From the human T2T-CHM13v2.0 reference genome, Homo sapiens, in NCBI RefSeq assembly GCF_009914755.1, contig NC_060936.1: a stretch of DNA of 64,000 nucleotides. One strand, given 5' to 3'. The position numbers and the translations under genes were made by a program. Below the pieces are notes generated by a model. That model was not told where the DNA came from. It saw only the letters and a program-made list of their open reading frames with translations, and ran no database searches. This document shows positions 5,019-33,710 of this stretch, one piece after another (within the stretch, counting starts at the first letter, position 1; each line of letters begins with the position of its first letter).

Positions 5019-6459
5019 GGCAGCGTCTGCCTGTCTGCCTGGCAGTCTCTGGAAGCTTCAGTTGCTGCTGTTTGTGGGCTGGGTGGCGGTTGCCTGTTTG
5101 GGATGGACTCCGGAATAGGAGTTTTGGCTCCTGAATGGGAGCCTGTGTTGGATAGGATTGTTCCTGGTGAGCTCTTAAAGGGATCATCTCCTGCAACTGG
5201 CTTTTGGAAGCTTTTCCCTTGGGTATAATGAGGGCCTTCATGGCTGGGTTTTAATATATAAGTCCTTGCTTCAGCCTTCTAGGCCCTCCACAACCAGGAG
5301 CACCTTTGTGATGAGCCAGAGGCTCACATCTGTGGACCAGACTGAAGGGCAGTGGTCACTGAAGGGGCAGCATCCCCGTCTGTCCTCAGGATCTTGTACG
5401 AGATCCGTTGGAAAGACAGGAAAACCGAGGCTGGGAGCGTGGAGTGACGGGTGCAGGGGCCACTGGCTCTGCTCTCTGGGTTGTGCCTGGCGATGGGAAG
5501 CTTCCTCTCCTCCCTGCCCCTGCCAGACACACAGAGTTGCTTGGAACAAGTGTGTTCTGGGCAGTGGAAGATTATATAGTTGTAAACAGACATGAGGGAG
5601 CTCCCGGCATGCCAAGGAAGAGCTCCCAGGTGTGCTGTTAGGTGGAAAAGGCAAAGTGCGGGACACTGTGTCACAATGAACAAAATGGCATTAATAAATA
5701 TGTGCCGGCATCAGCAAGAAAGACGTTCACAGGAAACTGCTAGGACCGGCTGCCTCTTGGGAGAACTGGGTACAGGACAGGGAGAGAGGACGGCTTTTCA
5801 TAGTATCTGCTTCAGAGTTCTGGACCGTGCAAATACATTGCCTATTAAGCACCAAAATTAAAAGGTAATAGGGCATAGTGGGTGGGAGGGAGCGGTTCTG
5901 CTTGGGTGTTTTAGCCAGAAGCAGGGTCTTGTGCTGTCCCCTCAGCTGAGGCATTCCTGAAATCCGATCTTGAACGTGAGTCCCAGCTACAGTCTTGCTC
6001 TGTTGCCAGTGCCCCACCCCCACCACATCCCCCTCACCCCGCTGTTCCCTGTCCCTCATGAGGCTGGGCTAGCACCCGTCCTGGAAGGGTTAGGCCCTGG
6101 TCTTTTGCTCGTTGACTCTCTTCTCAGGAAGGGTCACTTCTCTTCTGCCTGAAGCTGGTGGGCCTCCGTGGTGCCCTTGATGTCCTGGGCACCGAGAGCT
6201 TGAGGGCAGACAGGAGTGTCAGGGTTTTCCTCTCCAGACTACAAGCCACGCTCAGCTCTTGGGGGAGAGGGACATGGGGGCATGGCTCATCACAGGGGAG
6301 TGGGGGGAACCCTCCAAAGTCTGCTTCTCCCAGGAAAGAAAATGGGGATCTGCTGGGGCTTCTTCCTGGCAGCGTCTGAGCAGCGCGTGGGCCAGGTACC
6401 AGATTCCTGGTACTGTATGCCTAACAGAGAGCACCCGCTCCCCCGTGTCTCCCCTGCAG

Positions 6460-6540
6460 GGCACCCTCATCCAGCATCTGAAGGAGCACCTGCTGCACGG
6501 CAACATGACCAGCAGTGACATCCTCCTGTGCTACACCACG
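6460..6540 (+). CDS. AACS: AACS exon ~9 ([27 protein letters not shown]), phase 0-0
   Basis: cccctgcag|GGCACC ... ACCACG|gtaagg; 81 nt. Confidence 0.95.
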
Positions 6541-7005
6541 GTAAGGGCTTCCCCAGGTGCTGGCCTGTGCTATACCACAATAGGGGCTTCCCTGGGTGCC
6601 AGCCCATGACACATAGTAAGGACTTCCCCAGGCGCCGGCCCGTGGCACATGGTAAGGGCTTCCCCAGGTGCTGGCCTGTGCTATACCACAATAGGGGCTT
6701 CCCTGGGTGCCAGCCCATGACACATGGTAAGGGCTTCCCCAGGCGCCGGCCCGTGGCACATGTTAAGGGCTTCCCCAGGCGCCGGCCCGTGGCACATGGT
6801 AAGGGCTTCCCCGGGCGCCGGCCCGTGGCACATGGTAAGGGCTTCCCCGGGCGCCGGCCCGTGGCACATGGTAAGGGCTTCCCCGGGCGCTGGCCCGTGA
6901 CACATGGTAAGGGCTTCCCCGGGCGCCGGCCTGTGCTGCGCCGTGGTAGGGGCTTCTCTGGGGCGCTGCCTGTGCTGCACTGTGGTGAGGGCTTCCCCAG
7001 CGCAC
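6525..7005 (+). repeat. GC-rich minisatellite, ~13 units of 36/39 bp, starting in the end of exon 9
   Basis: Unit GTAAGGGCTTCCCCAGGCGCCGGCCCGTGGCACATG; periodic ORFs (HGKGFPRRRPVA)n. Confidence 0.95.
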
Positions 7006-7243
7006 GGTGTCGAGTTGGGCCCGCTCCTCCGCCCACCCTGCCTCAGCAGCGTGGAATCCACGCCATGAAACCATAACTCAACTCAAGGTGTTGGAGGCCT
7101 TCCTGCCCTTGTTGAGCACTGAAAGACAGAAGGTTAGGACATGTTAAAGGAAGTGTATTTTACCCCAGAGGAGGAGAACTCAAAACATCAAGAGCTTCCA
7201 CAGTGATCTAGCTACAGGTCCTAGGTGATGCTTCTGTGCTGAG

Positions 7244-7629: not shown

Positions 7630-7920
7630 GAGACTCCCCACAGATGCAGGAGGGAGGACAACCCCCCCACCCCAGTGACCTCACACAGGTGCAGGAGAGT
7701 ATCAGACCCCCCACCCATGACCTCACACAGGTGCAGGAGACTGTCAGACCCCTGGGACTGCACACAGATGTAGGAGTGGGGACAGACCCCTGGGACTGCA
7801 CACAGATGGAGGACGGGGGACAGACCCCTGGGATTACACAGAGATGCAGAAAGGGTCAGACCCCTGAGACCTCACACATACACCCGTGCAGGGGACAGAC
7901 CCCTGGGATCTCACACAGGC
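7630..7920 (+). repeat. Degenerate minisatellite, ~36-45 bp unit (CAGACCCCTGGGACTGCACACAGATG...)
   Basis: About 7 recurring CAGACCCC / CACACAG(A/G)TG cores. Confidence 0.8.
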
Positions 7921-8939: not shown

Positions 8940-9532
<593 letters not shown>

Positions 9533-10623: not shown

Positions 10624-10748
10624 GTCGGCTGGATGATGTGGAACTGGATGGTGTCCCTTCTGGCCACAGGAGCGGCCATGGTCTTGTACGATGGCTCCCC
10701 CCTGGTGCCCACGCCCAATGTGCTCTGGGACCTGGTTGACAGGATAGG
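10624..10748 (+). CDS. AACS: AACS exon ~10 ([42 protein letters not shown]), phase 0-2
   Basis: tctttgcag|GTCGGC ... ATAGG|gtaggt; 125 nt. Confidence 0.95.
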
Positions 10749-28644: not shown

Positions 28645-28847
28645 TGGAATCCTTCGAGGAGGTGGAGGACAGCCTGTGTGTCCCCCAGTATAACAAGTAC
28701 AGGGAGGAGAGGGTGATCCTCTTCCTGAAGATGGCCTCCGGGCACGCCTTCCAGCCTGACTTGGTTAAGAGGATCCGTGACGCCATCCGCATGGGCTTGT
28801 CTGCGCGACACGTGCCCAGCCTCATCCTGGAAACCAAGGGCATCCCG
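28645..28847 (+). CDS. AACS: AACS exon ~17 ([15 protein letters not shown]...LILETKGIP), phase 1-0
   Basis: ccacag|TGGAATCC ... ATCCCG|gtatgg; 203 nt; within ORF 28506..28925. Confidence 0.95.
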
Positions 28848-29154
28848 GTATGGCCATCTCCCGCCAGCGAGGAGACCGCAGCCATCGCCCCACGAGCCCA
28901 CACATTGAGGGGCGCTTACATCTGAGCAGCTTGCCGGTGCTTTATATATCGTTTGTCCACGTTGCCTAGCAACGCCATCCTCTCCCTGCCATCCTTTTTC
29001 CTACCCTTCCTAAGACTGCATTTAAAGCAACTTCTGCTAAATACCCATGTTCAGAGGGTTAGCAGGCCCAGCCCTGCAGGTCCAACTGGCTTCTCCCTGC
29101 TATCCCCTGGTTTTAGTGTATTCTCAAAATTTTTAATGAGAACATTAATTTTAA

Positions 29155-29465
<311 letters not shown>

Positions 29466-30102
29466 ATTTTAACTTTTTAAAGTGCTGCTGGGAGCCGTTG
29501 CTGTTGCCTTTTAGTTTTAAGTTCTGCTGGTACAGACAAGACTTGACTCTTTTTAGAGGCAGGTCTTCCTAAGGCTGTGTCGTCATCCCCCAGCCCCTGG
29601 CCCCAGTACGCTCTGCTTTGATTCTAAGTGGGGGAGGAGGAGGGTCACCCAAATTGGATCACAGCTTTCATTTGCATTGCTTACAAAACGGATACCCCGC
29701 AAGCTGACAGAAGCTGCTGTGTGTGTGTGAGTGTGTGTGTGTATGTGAATGTATACAACAATTTAGACAGTGGCAGGCTGTATTTGAAGCCTATGGAATG
29801 GCTATTCGTTAAGGAGAAGATGGGAGCACACACTCACTGGGTTCCCAGGGGAAGCTGACTTTGATGTTGCCCGGGAGCAGGGCTGATTCTGTGAGGTGTA
29901 ACTAGAGACAGGATTTACCAGGAGAGTCTGCTTCCTGGAGAATGTTGAAATATCTGATGCCGTTTACTTTGAAACCCGTAGATCATTCTCTTTGCCTTAA
30001 AAGTTATTTCAACATCTTCAAAACAACCTGTCCAGGAGTGGGGGCTGGGGAGAGCGCTTGCAGCACGACAACGGTGTGCAATCCCTGATCATCCCTGGAA
30101 GA

Positions 30103-30215
30103 CTGACTCCTACTCGGGACCCTGTTCCTCCTCCTCCCGGCGCCTGTCCACATCTGCGCTGACTCCCACTCGGGACCCCTGTCCCTCCTCCTCCCGGCGC
30201 CTGCCCGCATCTGCG
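30103..30215 (+). repeat. Two-copy tandem duplication, period 56 bp
   Basis: CTGACTCC(T/C)ACTCGGGACCC..CCTCCTCCTCCCGGCGCCTG..CATCTGCG at 30103 and 30159. Confidence 0.9.
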
Positions 30216-33200
30216 GTGTTGGTTGCTTTTTGTGGTGTCCACACGTTTCCTTTGTGTTCTGGTTCTGCATGGGAAGAGCCCTGCAGCTTGGGGCTTTCCA
30301 TCCATCTCTTTCTTTTTCCCTTATTTTTGGTTGGTGACTCTTGGCGGCTCTCTGTGGGGACACTGATGCTCTCCAAGAAGGTACTTCTTGAATCAGTGAC
30401 CCTTATTGTCTTTTTCTGATGAGGGTCTAAGGTTTTCCTTCAGTGAATCAGTGCTGTCTTATCTGGAACATTTTAGGGAACTGGAATTTGCATTTATCCC
30501 CTTGGCTTTATATTATTGAAAAAGAACTTAGGTCTTTTGCTGCCAAAACAGTTGTTACCAAACCATATTTGATCACGAGAGTAGTGGAACAATTTATTAT
30601 GAAGGGGGAAAACTCAGCACCTTTCTTTCCCTGGTTGTCCTGGCTTTTGTGGGCTTGCGTCCAGGGCACCCAGCTGGGCTCTGGGCTCTTTCTCTCCCCA
30701 GATAAGGTCTCCTCCTGGGTGCATTCGGGAAGTTATTTGGAGGGTTCTTCCAGATTTTTGAATGCCCTTACATTTTCGAGCCCTCACGGCAGGCTTAGGA
30801 GAGGATTTACCTCTTTTATTGCTGAGCTAGGGAGGGGTCCAGCCTCCACAGGGAGGTGACACGGCGTGGCCCCAGCCTGCCCATTCAGGAACTGGACCCA
30901 CTTCAGGGTCAGAAGAGGACAACTGAGGTCTCATCTGCAAAGTCCCGGGGCCTTGCTGAGGCAGGAGAGCCTGTTGCAGGTCTGACCCTTCACATGTTGC
31001 TTGTAGGGAGTGGGCTACCCACCCCTCACCACCCCGAGAACAGCCTGAGCCCGGGGCGCATCTCTGTCTCTGTGTGGAGAGACACTGCCGCTTCTGTTCC
31101 CTGGGAAGCCAGTGCCATTTTCAGCATTTAGGGGGTTCCTGGTGAGGGCTCAGGAGAGATCTGGGCCCAGAGCCAGCCACACTCCTTGTGTTGAGTAAGA
31201 CTCATCCCATCTCTGATCTGTGACACGAGGAGAGGAGCCCCTCACTCACCCGCCACAGCTCAGGGTGGTGATGCGGCACCATTGGAGTGAGCGGCCCCGG
31301 GGGACTGGGGAGGCTCTGGCCGGCGTAGTCCTTGCCGCCAGCCTTCACAGCGGGTTCTCTGAGGGTCTTTATGCACAGGGGCTCTGTCACTTAGCTCTGG
31401 CCCCCCCTCTGCCCCTGAGGCATGACTTTGGGCAACGCAGCATCCAAGCCTCAGTTTCCCCATCTCTAAGATGAGTTGACAACAGAGCCTCTCTGGTGGG
31501 TGCCGTGGGCCACAGGGTGCCCAGAACGCAGTCCCCGTGCCTCTGTTTCTGTGCTGCCTCCACTCACCGTCAGCCTTCATTCGGAGTAGGTGCGCATGCT
31601 GTGCAAAGCCCTTCCACACACCTGATCTCAGTTGCTCTCTGTGCAAAAGTCAGAGAGGCTTTCCCTGCATTTCCTGTTTGAACAGTGTCCTGGCCTCCAT
31701 CTTTAGCTTTGACAGTGTTTACCATGGGGGTGCTGAGGGTGAGTTCTTGTGTATGTGCACATCTTTCTGGTGGAGTGGAGGCCTCTTGAGGACAGGAACC
31801 TTGTGGGTCTACCTCCTTTTCTTCGGAGCTCAGCTGACTGCCTGGCAAACAGCAGATGCTTTTGGTGTCTGGTGAGTGAATGGGGGGTGGGGAGCTGGTC
31901 CTGTGACCCTGGTGAGGCGGGACAAACTTGTCTTCCTCACACCCATCTTACTTCCTCTTATGAGGAAACCCAGAGAGATGAGGGGTCTTGCCCAAGGAAG
32001 GGGTGTCCATAGTCAGCTCTGCCTTCTGCTCACCCAGAATAAAGACCTGGGGACCCCGCGAGGGTCATGGCCAAGTGGAATGGACTCCTGGCATTTGAGG
32101 GCTTCCCGACTGCAGCCCTCAGGCAGCCATGGCTGTCCCAAGTCCAGCGGGCCTTTGCTCGGGTCATGGCTGGGATGTCTGGCCCTTCCTGACAGGAGGC
32201 TGCTGGGCTCCTGTCTACTTGGGGACGCCTCATGCAGGAGCTGGTGTGGGGGTGGGCAGGGGGGCGGTGGCTTCTTCCTTTCTCTTTCCCTTTCCTCTAC
32301 CTTTTCCCCTCTCCCCAGAGGAAATGGTAGCAGGATTTCTTTTAAGAGGATGCTGCTGTATTTTGCCAGCGGGTGGAAGGTGGCGGTATTAGCTCCCGTG
32401 AGCTGCACGTGGACCCCTGTGTGAAGCGTAGCAGGGCACAGAGCAGGCGAGACGTTTGCATCTCACAGCGGGAGGGCCGGCGACATCACATGAAGTGACA
32501 GGCAGGCCCTTGGAAGCCGGTGCTTAGATCCTTAATTAGTTCACACGTCGACTGAATTTTCAAGTGAATGAATTTTAATTACATCTCAGGTTAAAAAAAA
32601 AAAAAGGCGCCAGTGATCGAGGACTCGTCACTGGGCTCTGTTGCTCCTGAAGTTTCCTAGCCCACAACACACCAACACTGCCAAGGGCTCTTCTGGATTC
32701 AAGGTGAAACACATGTGCCATAAATCTTGGAGCTCTGAATGTTTGGAAAGGGCCCGACTGTGAGAAGAAGTAACACACCGTCCCGTGCAGATGGCTGGCT
32801 CTGAGGAGGAGTTCATGGGAGCTTGGGGACACTCTTGCCTCTAGTTCTAGGAAGCTGGGCCACTTCTGAAGTAATGGCAATATCAATAAAGTAATGGTCT
32901 TTATCATAGAATAACGTGATAAAATATATAGAGAAGTAAAAAAGTATAAATAAAAGTAAAATCATCATAAAACATAGTAGCTAGGCACTTCTGAAGCTGT
33001 GTGTGCACTGATTCATTCACCCAGTGACTCACAGCCTTATAGCCTAGGTGCTGGCACCCCTACTTTCATTCGAGGAAGTGAACTCAGGTTCAGGAATTTA
33101 CCCAGCATCCCCCAGATGGGGTGGCAGGAGCCACATCTTCCCTGAAAACTTTCTTGCCCAGGGTGTCTGCTGGGATTTAGGAATGGTCTATGCCTGCATT

Positions 33201-33387
33201 TTTATCCTGGTCAGGCTGACCCTGAACCCTGAGAGATACTCTTTTTTATATTCCCATCTGGAATATGCACTGCCGGGGTCAGTGGGGTGTCTGGAGGGCC
33301 CTCTCGAGGCCAGCTTGGATGTGACACGTGTCGTGGGTCCCAACGGGGCCCAGTAGAGTGTGCAGCGTTAGAAAAATGAACATGCTC

Positions 33388-33710
33388 GGCTGGGCGCGGT
33401 GGCTCACGCCTGTGATCCTAGCACTTTGGGAGGCCAAGATGGGTGGATCATGAGGTCAGGAGATCAAGACCATCCTGGCTAACATGAGACCATCCTGGTG
33501 AAACCCCATCTCTACTAAAAATACAAAAAATTAGCTGGGCGTGGTGGCAGGTGCCTATGGTCCCAGCTACTCAGGAGGCTGAGGTAGGAGAATGGTGTGA
33601 ACCTGGGAGGGGGAGCTTGCAGTAAGCGGAGATTGCACCACTGCACTCCAGCCTGGGTGACAGAGTGCGACTCTGTCTCAAAAAAAAAAAAAAGAAAAAA
33701 AAAGAAAAAA
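33388..33710 (+). mobile_element. AluY-like
   Basis: 18-bp TSD AGAAAAATGAACATGCTC (33370-33387 and 33711-33728). Confidence 0.92.

What the first reader, a model, noticed from the sequence alone, without database searches (positions are those of the whole stretch)
6525..7005. Minisatellite built from the exon-9 splice junction: array of in-frame decoy 5' splice sites behind a stop codon
Seen: the repeat unit spans the end of exon 9 and the donor (…ACG|GTAAGG). Donor-like copies recur at 6616 (GTAAGG), 6652, 6727, 6799, 6835, 6871, 6907 (all ATG|GTAAGG), 6946 (GTG|GTAGGG) and 6985 (GTG|GTGAGG). Copies at 6580, 6691 (ATAGGG) and 6763 (TTAAGG) have lost the GT. Units are 36 or 39 bp, so every copy is in the same frame as the true donor at 6541. 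However, the nearest copy is dead and an in-frame TGA (6607-6609) precedes the first usable one, so any downstream donor yields a premature stop. Inference: copy number or unit composition could tune AACS level through competing donors plus NMD, or through a U1 snRNP decoy cluster. An allele lacking the TGA would instead insert repeat peptide in frame.
Basis: partly seen in the sequence, partly recalled or inferred. Interest (0 to 1): 0.8.

Follow-up and report, generated by a model that had tools for sequence, protein, structure and literature searches.

The report
Donor-repeating minisatellite in AACS intron 9
A tandem repeat that starts inside AACS exon 9 copies that exon's splice donor nine more times into the intron; it is real, old and variable in people, belongs to an already described kind of repeat, and nobody has shown that the extra donors do anything.

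Summary
There are 13 units of 39 or 36 bp (6541-~7007). The first unit includes the last 16 nt of exon 9. Nine of 12 downstream copies keep GT, and six of them match the true donor at +1..+8. All copies are in frame, and in-frame TGAs lie at 6607, 6718 and 6898.

This is not a new kind of element. Minisatellites whose first monomer spans an exon/intron border are described for F7 IVS7, CBS IVS13, IFI6, LMNB2 and PDGFA. In F7 minigenes the pseudo-donors are functional but silent, because the most upstream site is always chosen.

Two things are new here. First, an unprocessed AACS paralogue on chr5 (about 10% diverged) carries a 10-unit array at the same junction with shared unit types, so the array is tens of millions of years old. 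Second, Lu et al. 2023 list this VNTR as an eQTL. Their two lead motifs are the decoy-donor junction k-mers of the second 111-bp higher-order copy, and all 29 slopes are negative.

However, 27 of those 29 rows concern a transcript in the last intron, and the locus is absent from their fine-mapped set. The most likely reading is a mostly silent by-product array. Causal tuning through decoy donors remains possible, at about 0.15.

The parts
6460..6540 (+). AACS exon 9 (81 nt, phase 0-0)
   Evidence: Hub annotation. The translation is an open frame, [27 protein letters not shown].
6525..6540 (+). Exonic part of the first repeat monomer (CCTGTGCTACACCACG)
   Evidence: Matches the tail of the 39-bp units 1 and 4 at 14 of 16 positions. 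There is no similarity further upstream in the exon.
6541..6548 (+). Authentic 5' splice site, ACG|GTAAGGGC
   Evidence: Hub annotation gives the exon end as 6540. U1 duplex energy -8.7 kcal/mol.
6541..6651 (+). Higher-order copy 1 (units 1-3: 39+36+36 bp). The unit 2 donor is dead (ATAGGG at 6580). The unit 3 donor at 6616 is weakened (ATA|GTAAGGAC).
6607..6609 (+). First in-frame TGA behind the true donor. It lies in the 36-bp 'B-type' unit.
   Evidence: The same unit type (GCCAGCCCATGACAC) is present in the chr5 paralogue.
6652..6762 (+). Higher-order copy 2 (units 4-6). It differs from copy 1 at 2 of 111 positions (6615/6726 A>G and 6622/6733 A>G). It carries full-strength decoy donors at 6652 and 6727 and a second TGA at 6718-6720.
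6649..6670 (+). Published lead eMotif ATGGTAAGGGCTTCCCCAGGTG (the junction of unit 3 and unit 4, spanning decoy donor 6652)
   Evidence: Lu 2023 Data S3 rows. One exact match in the window and one in the whole genome.
6706..6737 (+). Published lead eMotif (listed in the paper as its reverse complement). It spans TGA 6718-6720 and decoy donor 6727.
   Evidence: Lu 2023 Data S3 rows. One exact match in the window and one in the whole genome.
6763..6906 (+). Run of four 36-bp units (7-10). Unit 7 has lost its GT (TTAAGG). Units 8 and 9 are identical. The third in-frame TGA is at 6898-6900.
6907..7007 (+). Three terminal units with 39-bp spacing (11-13), carrying donors GTAAGG, GTAGGG and GTGAGG. 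Similarity to the unit fades at about 7007.
   Evidence: The last unit has a counterpart in the chr5 copy.
10624..10748 (+). Exon 10, whose acceptor is the single 3' splice site that all these donors would have to join
   Evidence: Hub annotation.
6499..6718 (.). RefSeq 'enhancer' functional element overlapping the exon 9 end and units 1-5
   Evidence: Hub annotation only. The underlying experiment was not seen.

Best explanation
This is a GC-rich minisatellite (VNTR). It arose when a 39-bp piece spanning the AACS exon-9/intron-9 border was duplicated in tandem, and it has since turned over by unequal exchange.

Because the seed contained the donor, the intron now holds nine more GT-bearing copies, six of them as strong as the true site. 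At the RNA level the true donor wins by position. Exon definition, or 5'-to-3' scanning from exon 9, takes the first competent 5' splice site. The downstream copies therefore stay silent or are used only at trace level.

The two nearest copies are also crippled: there is an A at +1 at 6580, and 6616 is a weak site. Any leak product carries the TGA at 6607 and would be removed by nonsense-mediated decay.

The array is thus mainly a by-product, with two practical consequences. It is a reservoir of cryptic donors that would be taken up if the true donor were mutated. It is also a polymorphic marker whose composition tags a haplotype associated with lower expression of AACS-locus transcripts.

Shown: the anatomy, the age, the polymorphism and the association. 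Inferred: positional selection of the first donor (by analogy with F7), silence of the decoys, and non-causality of the association.
For: - Anatomy.
- Known class with the same architecture: the introduction of Borensztajn et al. 2006 (PMC1557585) lists IFI6, CBS, LMNB2, PDGFA and F7.
- F7 minigenes: five pseudo-sites identical to the authentic donor are functional but unused. After inactivation of upstream sites, only the most upstream functional one is taken. Pseudo-sites raised to a consensus value of 91 still do not compete.
[quoted passage not shown] This parallels the dead second copy here.
- The hub's RefSeq table (12 transcripts) has no exon 9 extended into the array.
- No selection signal on the donors. 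GT is lost in 3 of 13 AACS units, while GCTT is kept in all aligned units. In the chr5 paralogue, assumed non-coding, GT is kept in 10 of 10 units, so keeping GT needs no AACS-specific function.
- The 'in frame' property rests on few events. The 39-bp and 36-bp unit types both predate the chr5 duplication.
- The locus is absent from the fine-mapped file of Lu 2023. Five search terms over the readable files hit only Data S2 and S3.
- The motif signal (p 2.7e-46) far exceeds the length signal (p 4.4e-8) in the same tissue. A haplotype tag would behave this way.
Against: - The lead eMotifs are not arbitrary k-mers. Both span decoy donors of the second higher-order copy, one of them also a TGA, and each is unique in the genome.
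- All 29 of 29 listed slopes are negative (23 eMotif rows and 6 length rows). More decoys causing less product would give exactly this.
- Predicted RNA structure does not hide the decoys. The probability that the 9-mer is unpaired is 0.0002 for the true donor and 0.0002-0.0057 for the six full-strength decoys.
- A RefSeq enhancer feature overlaps units 1-5 (hub annotation), so a DNA-level role cannot be dismissed.
- Lu's Data S3 file was cut when stored, and their PDF supplement and Data S1 could not be read. Weaker AACS rows or notes may exist.
Confidence: 0.6

Rival explanations
1. The decoy donors are used at a meaningful rate. Each extra higher-order copy adds two full-strength donors and one TGA, which diverts more pre-mRNA into stop-containing isoforms that NMD removes. 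Array composition would then causally set AACS output.
For: - Six decoys are essentially equal to the true donor.
- The stop at 6607 is in frame and lies upstream of eight or more later junctions (hub exon table).
- The lead eMotifs are decoy-donor junctions unique to the second higher-order copy.
- All 29 of 29 slopes are negative, including AACS in muscle (eMotif p 1.5e-19, slope -0.34; length p 1.2e-4, slope -0.15).
- Precedents exist: use of proximal pseudo-sites in IFI6 and CBS, and a paper title linking the CBS VNTR to reduced enzyme activity (reference list only).
Against: - F7 minigenes show no competition from identical downstream sites.
- The nearest full-strength decoy is 111 nt away, behind one dead and one weak copy.
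- AACS is the associated gene in only 2 of 29 rows, and the locus is not in the fine-mapped file.
- No RefSeq isoform uses the decoys (hub annotation).
- No transcript data were examined here.
Confidence: 0.15
2. DNA-level element. The GC- and CpG-rich array acts on transcription as an enhancer or silencer, as a methylation target, or as an obstacle to elongation. Copy number or unit type would change expression of downstream AACS-locus transcripts independently of splicing.
For: - A RefSeq 'enhancer' feature at 6499-6718 overlaps units 1-5 (hub annotation).
- The array has 68% G+C and 30 CpGs in 483 bp, with CpG observed/expected 0.54 against 0.29 for the window.
- The strongest associations are with a transcript inside the last intron, not with spliced AACS. 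A change in transcription or read-through explains this more easily than cytoplasmic NMD does.
Against: - A simple enhancer-dosage model predicts positive slopes, yet all 29 are negative.
- The locus is not fine-mapped.
- The experiment behind the RefSeq feature was not seen.
Confidence: 0.12
3. U1 snRNP landing pad or decoy-exon cluster. The repeated donors bind U1 without being spliced. Five units also carry a 3'-splice-site-like CTTCCCCAG|G, which may add to this. Binding would either reinforce the upstream true donor and protect the 4-kb intron from premature cleavage, or form dead-end exon-definition complexes that slow intron 9 removal.
For: - Nine GT copies have U1 duplex energies from -5.0 to -8.6 kcal/mol.
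- Five 3'ss-like motifs lie 8 nt behind donor-like sites, at 6548, 6623, 6659, 6734 and 6770.
- Three poly(A)-signal hexamers lie further down intron 9, at 9091, 9635 and 9808.
- That U1 bound at intronic 5'ss-like sites suppresses cleavage, and that decoy exons promote intron retention, is recalled general knowledge, not checked here.
Against: - There is no direct evidence of any kind for this locus.
- The F7 study found no autonomous regulatory element in the neighbouring intron sequence (section heading seen; the section was not read).
- The chr5 paralogue, presumably without splicing constraint, keeps the same motifs.
Confidence: 0.08

Closest known systems
F7 intron 7 (IVS7) 37-bp VNTR (Borensztajn et al. 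2006, PLoS Genet, PMC1557585; abstract, introduction, one results section and discussion read)
   Same: The first monomer spans the exon/intron border. The authentic donor is followed by several copies of itself. The array is polymorphic in copy number. All donors must join one acceptor.
   Different: - F7 takes only 4 nt of exon into the monomer, whereas AACS takes 16 nt.
- The F7 unit is 37 bp, so frames differ between copies. AACS units are 36 or 39 bp, so all copies are in frame, but behind a TGA.
- F7 pseudo-sites are strictly identical. In AACS the two nearest copies are degenerate, and there is a 111-bp higher-order structure.
- F7 has minigene data. AACS has none.
CBS intron 13 31-bp VNTR (Yang et al. 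2000; Lievers et al. 2001; known here only from the introduction and reference list of PMC1557585)
   Same: It is a VNTR at an exon/intron border of a metabolic enzyme gene. A substitution in the second repeat is said (in a paper title) to prevent multiple alternate splicing, like the dead second copy in AACS. Copy number has been linked (in a paper title) to lower enzyme activity, like the negative eQTL slopes here.
   Different: Use of two pseudo-sites is documented for CBS. No such transcripts are documented for AACS. The CBS papers themselves were not read.
IFI6 (6-16) intron 2 minisatellite (Turri et al. 1995; known here from the introduction and reference list of PMC1557585; the paper itself is not held)
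   Same: It is a minisatellite that reiterates a splice donor: the authentic site is followed by 25 pseudo-sites.
   Different: [quoted passage not shown] In AACS the most proximal copy has no GT, and any use gives a stop.
LMNB2 (100-bp monomer) and PDGFA intron 4 (81-bp monomer) junction repeats (cited in PMC1557585 introduction)
   Same: The exon/intron junction is reiterated and only the authentic donor is used. This is the behaviour I predict for AACS.
   Different: Their monomers are much longer. These papers were not read.
eVNTR/eMotif loci of Lu et al. 2023 (Genome Res, PMC10234305; abstract, three sections, text passages and supplement rows read)
   Same: This array is their TR locus 17502 (GRCh38 chr12:125114540-125114952). 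It has significant length and motif associations.
   Different: It is not among their fine-mapped likely-causal loci. The paper's main text never mentions splicing (0 occurrences of 'splic') or AACS, so the splice-junction nature of the repeat is not noted there.

Membership tests
Exon/intron-junction minisatellite (F7 IVS7, CBS IVS13, IFI6, LMNB2, PDGFA class) | Head-to-tail array of a 10-100-bp unit | tested here: met
   TRF finds period 36 (9.7 copies, score 474) and period 111 (3.3 copies, score 552). I placed 13 units by hand.
Exon/intron-junction minisatellite (F7 IVS7, CBS IVS13, IFI6, LMNB2, PDGFA class) | First monomer spans the exon/intron boundary | tested here: met
   The last 16 nt of exon 9 (6525-6540) match the tail of the 39-bp unit at 14 of 16 positions, and the donor follows directly.
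Exon/intron-junction minisatellite (F7 IVS7, CBS IVS13, IFI6, LMNB2, PDGFA class) | The donor sequence is reiterated in the intron | tested here: met
   Nine of 12 downstream copies keep GT, and 6 of 12 are identical to the true donor at +1..+8.
Exon/intron-junction minisatellite (F7 IVS7, CBS IVS13, IFI6, LMNB2, PDGFA class) | Polymorphic in the population | tested here: met
   This comes from print, not from sequence. Lu 2023 tested only motifs that vary among assemblies. They list length and motif associations for this locus. Only one haplotype (T2T-CHM13) was seen directly.
Exon/intron-junction minisatellite (F7 IVS7, CBS IVS13, IFI6, LMNB2, PDGFA class) | Known splicing behaviour of the pseudo-sites (silent, or proximal ones used) | not testable with these tools
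   No RNA-seq, EST or minigene data were on hand. The hub's RefSeq table shows no extended exon 9.
Causal expression VNTR (fine-mapped eVNTR/eMotif) | Significant association of length or motif dosage with a nearby gene | tested here: met
   There are 23 eMotif rows and 6 length rows, with p from 2.7e-46 to 1.2e-4 and all slopes negative.
Causal expression VNTR (fine-mapped eVNTR/eMotif) | Posterior inclusion probability of at least 0.8 when SNVs are in the model | tested here: not met
   Data S4 (file 5, not cut) holds the fine-mapped set. Searches for AACS, its Ensembl id, the TR start, RP11-158L12.4 and its Ensembl id found nothing there.
Unproductive splicing coupled to NMD (regulated poison splice site) | The alternative site introduces a stop more than about 50 nt upstream of a later exon junction | tested here: met
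   TGA 6607-6609 is in frame, ahead of all GT-bearing decoys, and nine exons follow (hub table).
Unproductive splicing coupled to NMD (regulated poison splice site) | The isoform is observed and stabilised when NMD is blocked | not testable with these tools
   No transcript data.
Unproductive splicing coupled to NMD (regulated poison splice site) | Sequence conservation of the poison element beyond neutral expectation | tested here: inconclusive
   The array and its TGA-bearing unit type predate the chr5 duplication. However, units turn over, GT is lost in 3 of 13 units, and the chr5 copy (presumed non-coding) keeps GT in 10 of 10. No other species could be examined.

The most novel reading that the evidence does not exclude
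The copy number of the 111-bp higher-order unit is itself the causal variant behind the multi-tissue eQTL. Each copy adds two full-strength in-frame decoy donors and one TGA. Extra copies would divert AACS pre-mRNA into stop-containing products or trap U1, lowering output of all transcripts that pass intron 9. That would make this a natural, graded 'splice-decoy rheostat' in a ketone-body-utilising lipogenic enzyme. It would also be a counter-example to the strict first-site rule derived from F7.
Probability: 0.15. Interest if true: 0.6.

Novelty: new member of a known kind. Interest (0 to 1): 0.4.

Why it matters
Junction-reiterating minisatellites are natural experiments on how the spliceosome picks one 5' splice site among equals. 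Only a handful have been described, and only F7 has been dissected.

AACS offers a further case with useful properties:
- all copies are in frame;
- there is a built-in stop;
- the two nearest copies are dead or weak;
- a recent 111-bp higher-order duplication varies in people;
- a published multi-tissue expression association has lead k-mers that sit on the decoy donors.

This makes a concrete mechanism testable with existing GTEx reads and long-read assemblies.

It also matters for variant interpretation. A mutation of the true donor at 6541 would probably activate 6616 or 6652, giving a stop, or cause skipping of the 81-nt exon, by analogy with F7.

If the array turns out to be silent, it is simply one more ordinary VNTR tagging a haplotype.

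Tried and rejected
- **RNA structure as the reason the decoys are unused: rejected.** The 571-nt exon-plus-array RNA folds no better than shuffles (z = +1.96; 98 of 100 shuffles fold at least as well). Local accessibility does not separate the true donor from the decoys.
- **Selection for donors or for frame: not supported.** The head of the unit (GT.A..GCTT) is the most conserved part in both the AACS array and the chr5 array. Spacings in the chr5 copy are 38, 39, 36, 39, 39, 39, 39, 40, 39 (derived), so its frame drifts. In AACS only two unit lengths, 39 and 36, exist, and both are old.
- **Mapping artefact from the paralogue as the source of the eMotif signal: rejected.** Both lead motifs occur once in the whole T2T genome, with near matches only inside the same array.
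- **VNTR catalogues that gave nothing for this array.**
  - Bakhtiari 2021 lists only a promoter VNTR and an exon-1 VNTR for AACS.
  - The Eslami Rasekh 2021 supplement has 0 hits.
  - The Cell Genomics 2024 supplement has 0 hits.
  - Hamanaka 2023 lists only a non-significant CT repeat elsewhere in AACS.
- **Literature searches with no relevant hit.**
  - 'AACS' + 'VNTR': 4 papers, none on this array.
  - 'AACS' + 'minisatellite': 0 papers.
  - 'AACS' + 'sQTL': 0 papers.
  - 'RP11-158L12.4': 0 papers.
  - 'AACSP1': 20 papers, 12 listed, none on its origin.
- **Unavailable.** The IFI6 paper is not held. MaxEntScan and SpliceAI scores, RNA-seq junctions, GRCh38 sequence, other human haplotypes and primate orthologues could not be obtained with these tools.
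- **Canonical G-quadruplex potential of the unit.** I considered this by eye and set it aside because the loops are too long. No tool was run.
Full report

Yes, at every coordinate. Exon 9 of AACS (6460-6540) is 81 nt, reads [27 protein letters not shown] in frame 0, and ends ACG|GTAAGG. Tandem Repeats Finder reports an array with period 36 (6584-6935, 9.7 copies, 84% matches, score 474). The same array has a 111-bp higher-order period (6540-6899, 3.3 copies, 90% matches, score 552).

Anchoring on the base homologous to the G of the donor gives 13 units at 6541, 6580, 6616, 6652, 6691, 6727, 6763, 6799, 6835, 6871, 6907, 6946 and 6985. Spacings are 39 or 36 bp, so 13 of 13 are in the frame of the true donor.

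GT is present at 10 of 13 anchors. It is lost at 6580 and 6691 (ATAGGG) and at 6763 (TTAAGG). Six of the 12 downstream copies read ATG|GTAAGGGC and differ from the true site only at -2. Computed U1 duplex energies are -8.5 against -8.7 kcal/mol. Site 6616 (ATA|GTAAGGAC) is weaker at -5.0. Sites 6946 and 6985 score -8.2 and -8.6 (the U1 5' end used there was a recalled 11-nt motif).

The first in-frame stop after the exon is TGA 6607-6609, with further in-frame TGAs at 6718 and 6898. The repeat begins inside the exon: 6525-6540 matches the tail of the 39-bp unit at 14 of 16 positions. The 14-mer GTAAGGGCTTCCCC with up to 2 mismatches occurs 11 times in the window against 0.77 expected, and 0 of 100 shuffles reach that number.

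**2. Internal anatomy**

- Units 1-3 (39+36+36 = 111 bp, 6541-6651) and units 4-6 (6652-6762) are two copies of a higher-order repeat. They differ at 2 of 111 positions, 6615/6726 and 6622/6733, both A>G. Those two changes are what make the 6616 site weaker than its twin at 6727.
- Four 36-bp units follow. Units 8 and 9 are identical.
- Three 39-bp-spaced terminal units close the array.
- The array has 68% G+C and 30 CpGs in 483 bp, with CpG observed/expected 0.54 against 0.29 for the window.

**3. Age: a paralogue inside the same genome**

A search of the whole T2T assembly with 6400-7100 finds exactly one other place, on chromosome 5 (minus strand, 78% identity). BLAST of the window against 60 kb fetched there gives colinear blocks from about window 6038 to 34227 at 84-88.5% identity. 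Summing 13 blocks gives 2539 mismatches in 25,150 aligned columns, about 10%. This is therefore an unprocessed duplicate of AACS. I presume it is the annotated pseudogene AACSP1, but that name is recalled and comes from no call.

The chr5 copy has an exon-9-like segment with 5 of 27 residues changed, followed by its own array of 10 units at the same junction. Its units are old and divergent: mean pairwise identity is 0.69, against 0.77 in AACS, where groups of units are 97-100% alike.

Several chr5 units have their best match across loci rather than within their own array: P08-A11 at 0.88, P03-A10 at 0.83, P05-A04 at 0.82. The 36-bp unit with the tail GCCAGCCCATGACAC, the unit that carries the TGA in AACS, exists in both arrays, and so does the terminal unit. 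The array, with several unit types including the TGA-bearing one, therefore existed before the duplication.

With recalled calibration points (human-macaque about 6-7% divergence, human-marmoset somewhat above 10%), 10% between paralogues implies some tens of millions of years. This dating is an inference. After the split the AACS array kept turning over, while the chr5 array mostly decayed in place.

**4. Any sign that the donors or the frame are under selection?**

No.
- In AACS, GT is lost in 3 of 13 units, whereas GCTT at +7..+10 is kept in all 12 aligned units.
- In the chr5 copy, which I assume has no coding constraint, GT is kept in 10 of 10 units.
- The chr5 spacings are 38, 39, 36, 39, 39, 39, 39, 40, 39 (derived), so its frame drifts.
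- In AACS the 'all in frame' property rests on just two unit lengths, 39 and 36, both of which predate the duplication. It amounts to very few independent events.

**5. Why is only the first donor annotated?**

RNA structure is not the answer. The exon-plus-array RNA is no more stable than shuffles (z = +1.96). The probability that the 9-mer is unpaired is 0.0002 for the true donor and 0.0002-0.0057 for the six full-strength decoys.

The literature gives a better answer. Borensztajn et al. 2006 (PMC1557585; abstract, introduction, one results section and discussion read) describe the F7 intron 7 VNTR. Its first 37-bp monomer spans the exon 7 border, so the authentic donor is followed by four to eight identical pseudo-sites.
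- In minigenes all pseudo-sites proved functional, but none competed with the authentic site.
- After stepwise inactivation, only the most upstream functional site was used, with increasing exon skipping.
- Pseudo-sites raised to a consensus value of 91 still did not compete.

The authors propose a 5'-to-3' scanning rule. Their introduction lists the class. In IFI6 (6-16), the authentic site plus 25 pseudo-sites exist and the two nearest are used. In CBS intron 13, two pseudo-sites are used. In LMNB2 and PDGFA, only the authentic site is used.

[quoted passage not shown] Another links the CBS VNTR to reduced enzyme activity (titles only). The AACS array fits this class on every structural criterion. 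It resembles CBS in having a dead second copy.

**6. Is it polymorphic, and does it matter for expression?**

The supplement of Lu et al. 2023 (PMC10234305) lists TR locus 17502 at GRCh38 chr12:125114540-125114952.

By total length, it is associated with:
- AACS in skeletal muscle (p 1.2e-4, slope -0.147, q 0.021);
- RP11-158L12.4 (ENSG00000279233) in five tissues (p 4.4e-8 to 5.2e-5).

That makes 6 rows, all with negative slopes.

By motif dosage there are 23 rows in the stored part of the file:
- 22 tissues for RP11-158L12.4 (p 2.7e-46 to 2.2e-12, slopes -0.33 to -0.55);
- AACS in skeletal muscle (p 1.5e-19, slope -0.337).

All of these slopes are negative too.

Only two lead motifs occur. 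One is the reverse complement of window 6706-6737, which spans TGA 6718 and decoy donor 6727. The other is window 6649-6670, which spans decoy donor 6652. Each matches exactly once in the window and once in the whole genome. Both are diagnostic of the second higher-order copy. The variant being tagged is therefore most simply presence or number of extra 111-bp copies; this is my inference.

Lu et al. removed motifs that do not vary among their 35 assemblies, so the array is polymorphic.

**7. Does that prove the decoy model?**

No.
- 27 of the 29 rows concern RP11-158L12.4. By rough coordinate offset (about ±100 bp, from the gene ends and the hub table) it lies at about window 30224-33690, inside the last AACS intron, overlapping an alternative long exon (28645-32911, hub table). 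AACS itself appears only in muscle, where its statistics are almost identical to those of RP11-158L12.4.
- The motif signal is far stronger than the length signal in the same tissues. A haplotype tag would behave this way.
- The paper fine-mapped every eGene with GTEx SNVs in the model and put loci with PIP >= 0.8 in Data S4. That file is held uncut. Searches for AACS, its Ensembl id, the TR start, RP11-158L12.4 and its Ensembl id hit only Data S2 and S3.
- The paper's main text never mentions splicing (0 occurrences of 'splic').

Limits: Data S3 was cut when stored, and Data S1 and the PDF supplement could not be read. Weaker AACS rows may exist.

**8. Verdict**

The thing is a junction-reiterating VNTR, a new member of a kind known since the 1990s.

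The most likely mechanism (0.6) is positional selection of the first donor, with the decoys silent or nearly so, any leak removed by NMD, and the expression association due to linkage.

No paper in the searchable library describes this AACS array as a splice-junction repeat. The searches were 'AACS'+'VNTR', 'AACS'+'minisatellite' and 'AACS'+'sQTL'.

Noticed in passing
window 7663-7918; L002 955-1179: A second minisatellite (42-bp and 38-bp periods, scores 152 and 176) lies about 650 bp downstream of the junction array. The chr5 paralogue has a 37-bp array (5.9 copies) at the corresponding side. Intron 9 therefore carries two old arrays.
   Followed up: no
G000 contig 5, about 179320000-179353000 (minus); loci L002-L008: An unprocessed duplicate of AACS is colinear with window ~6038-34227 at 84-88.5% identity. 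Its exon-9-like segment is open but has 5 of 27 residues changed. I presume it is the pseudogene AACSP1 (name recalled).
   Followed up: partly
window 6548, 6623, 6659, 6734, 6770: Five units carry CTTCCCCAG|G, a 3'-splice-site-like motif, 8 nt behind the donor-like GT. Such units hold both kinds of splice-site look-alike and could frame pseudo-exons of 20 + 36k nt. In units 8-11 the AG is replaced by GG (CCCCGGG).
   Followed up: no
window ~30224-33690 (approximate) and 30103-30215: RP11-158L12.4 is the transcript most strongly tied to the VNTR motifs in Lu 2023. It maps roughly into the last AACS intron, overlapping the alternative long exon 28645-32911. A 57-bp x 2 tandem repeat (score 189) sits just before its approximate start and could itself be a candidate variant for that signal.
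   Followed up: no
outside the window (GRCh38 chr12:125065358-125065429 and 125065501-125065602): Bakhtiari et al. 2021 list two other AACS VNTRs, one in the promoter (14-bp unit) and one in coding exon 1 (32-bp unit). Both were tested and neither is an eQTL.
   Followed up: no
window 9091, 9635, 9808: Three poly(A)-signal hexamers (ATTAAA, AATAAA, AATAAA) lie in intron 9 downstream of the array. They are relevant only if the array acts through U1-dependent protection from premature cleavage.
   Followed up: no
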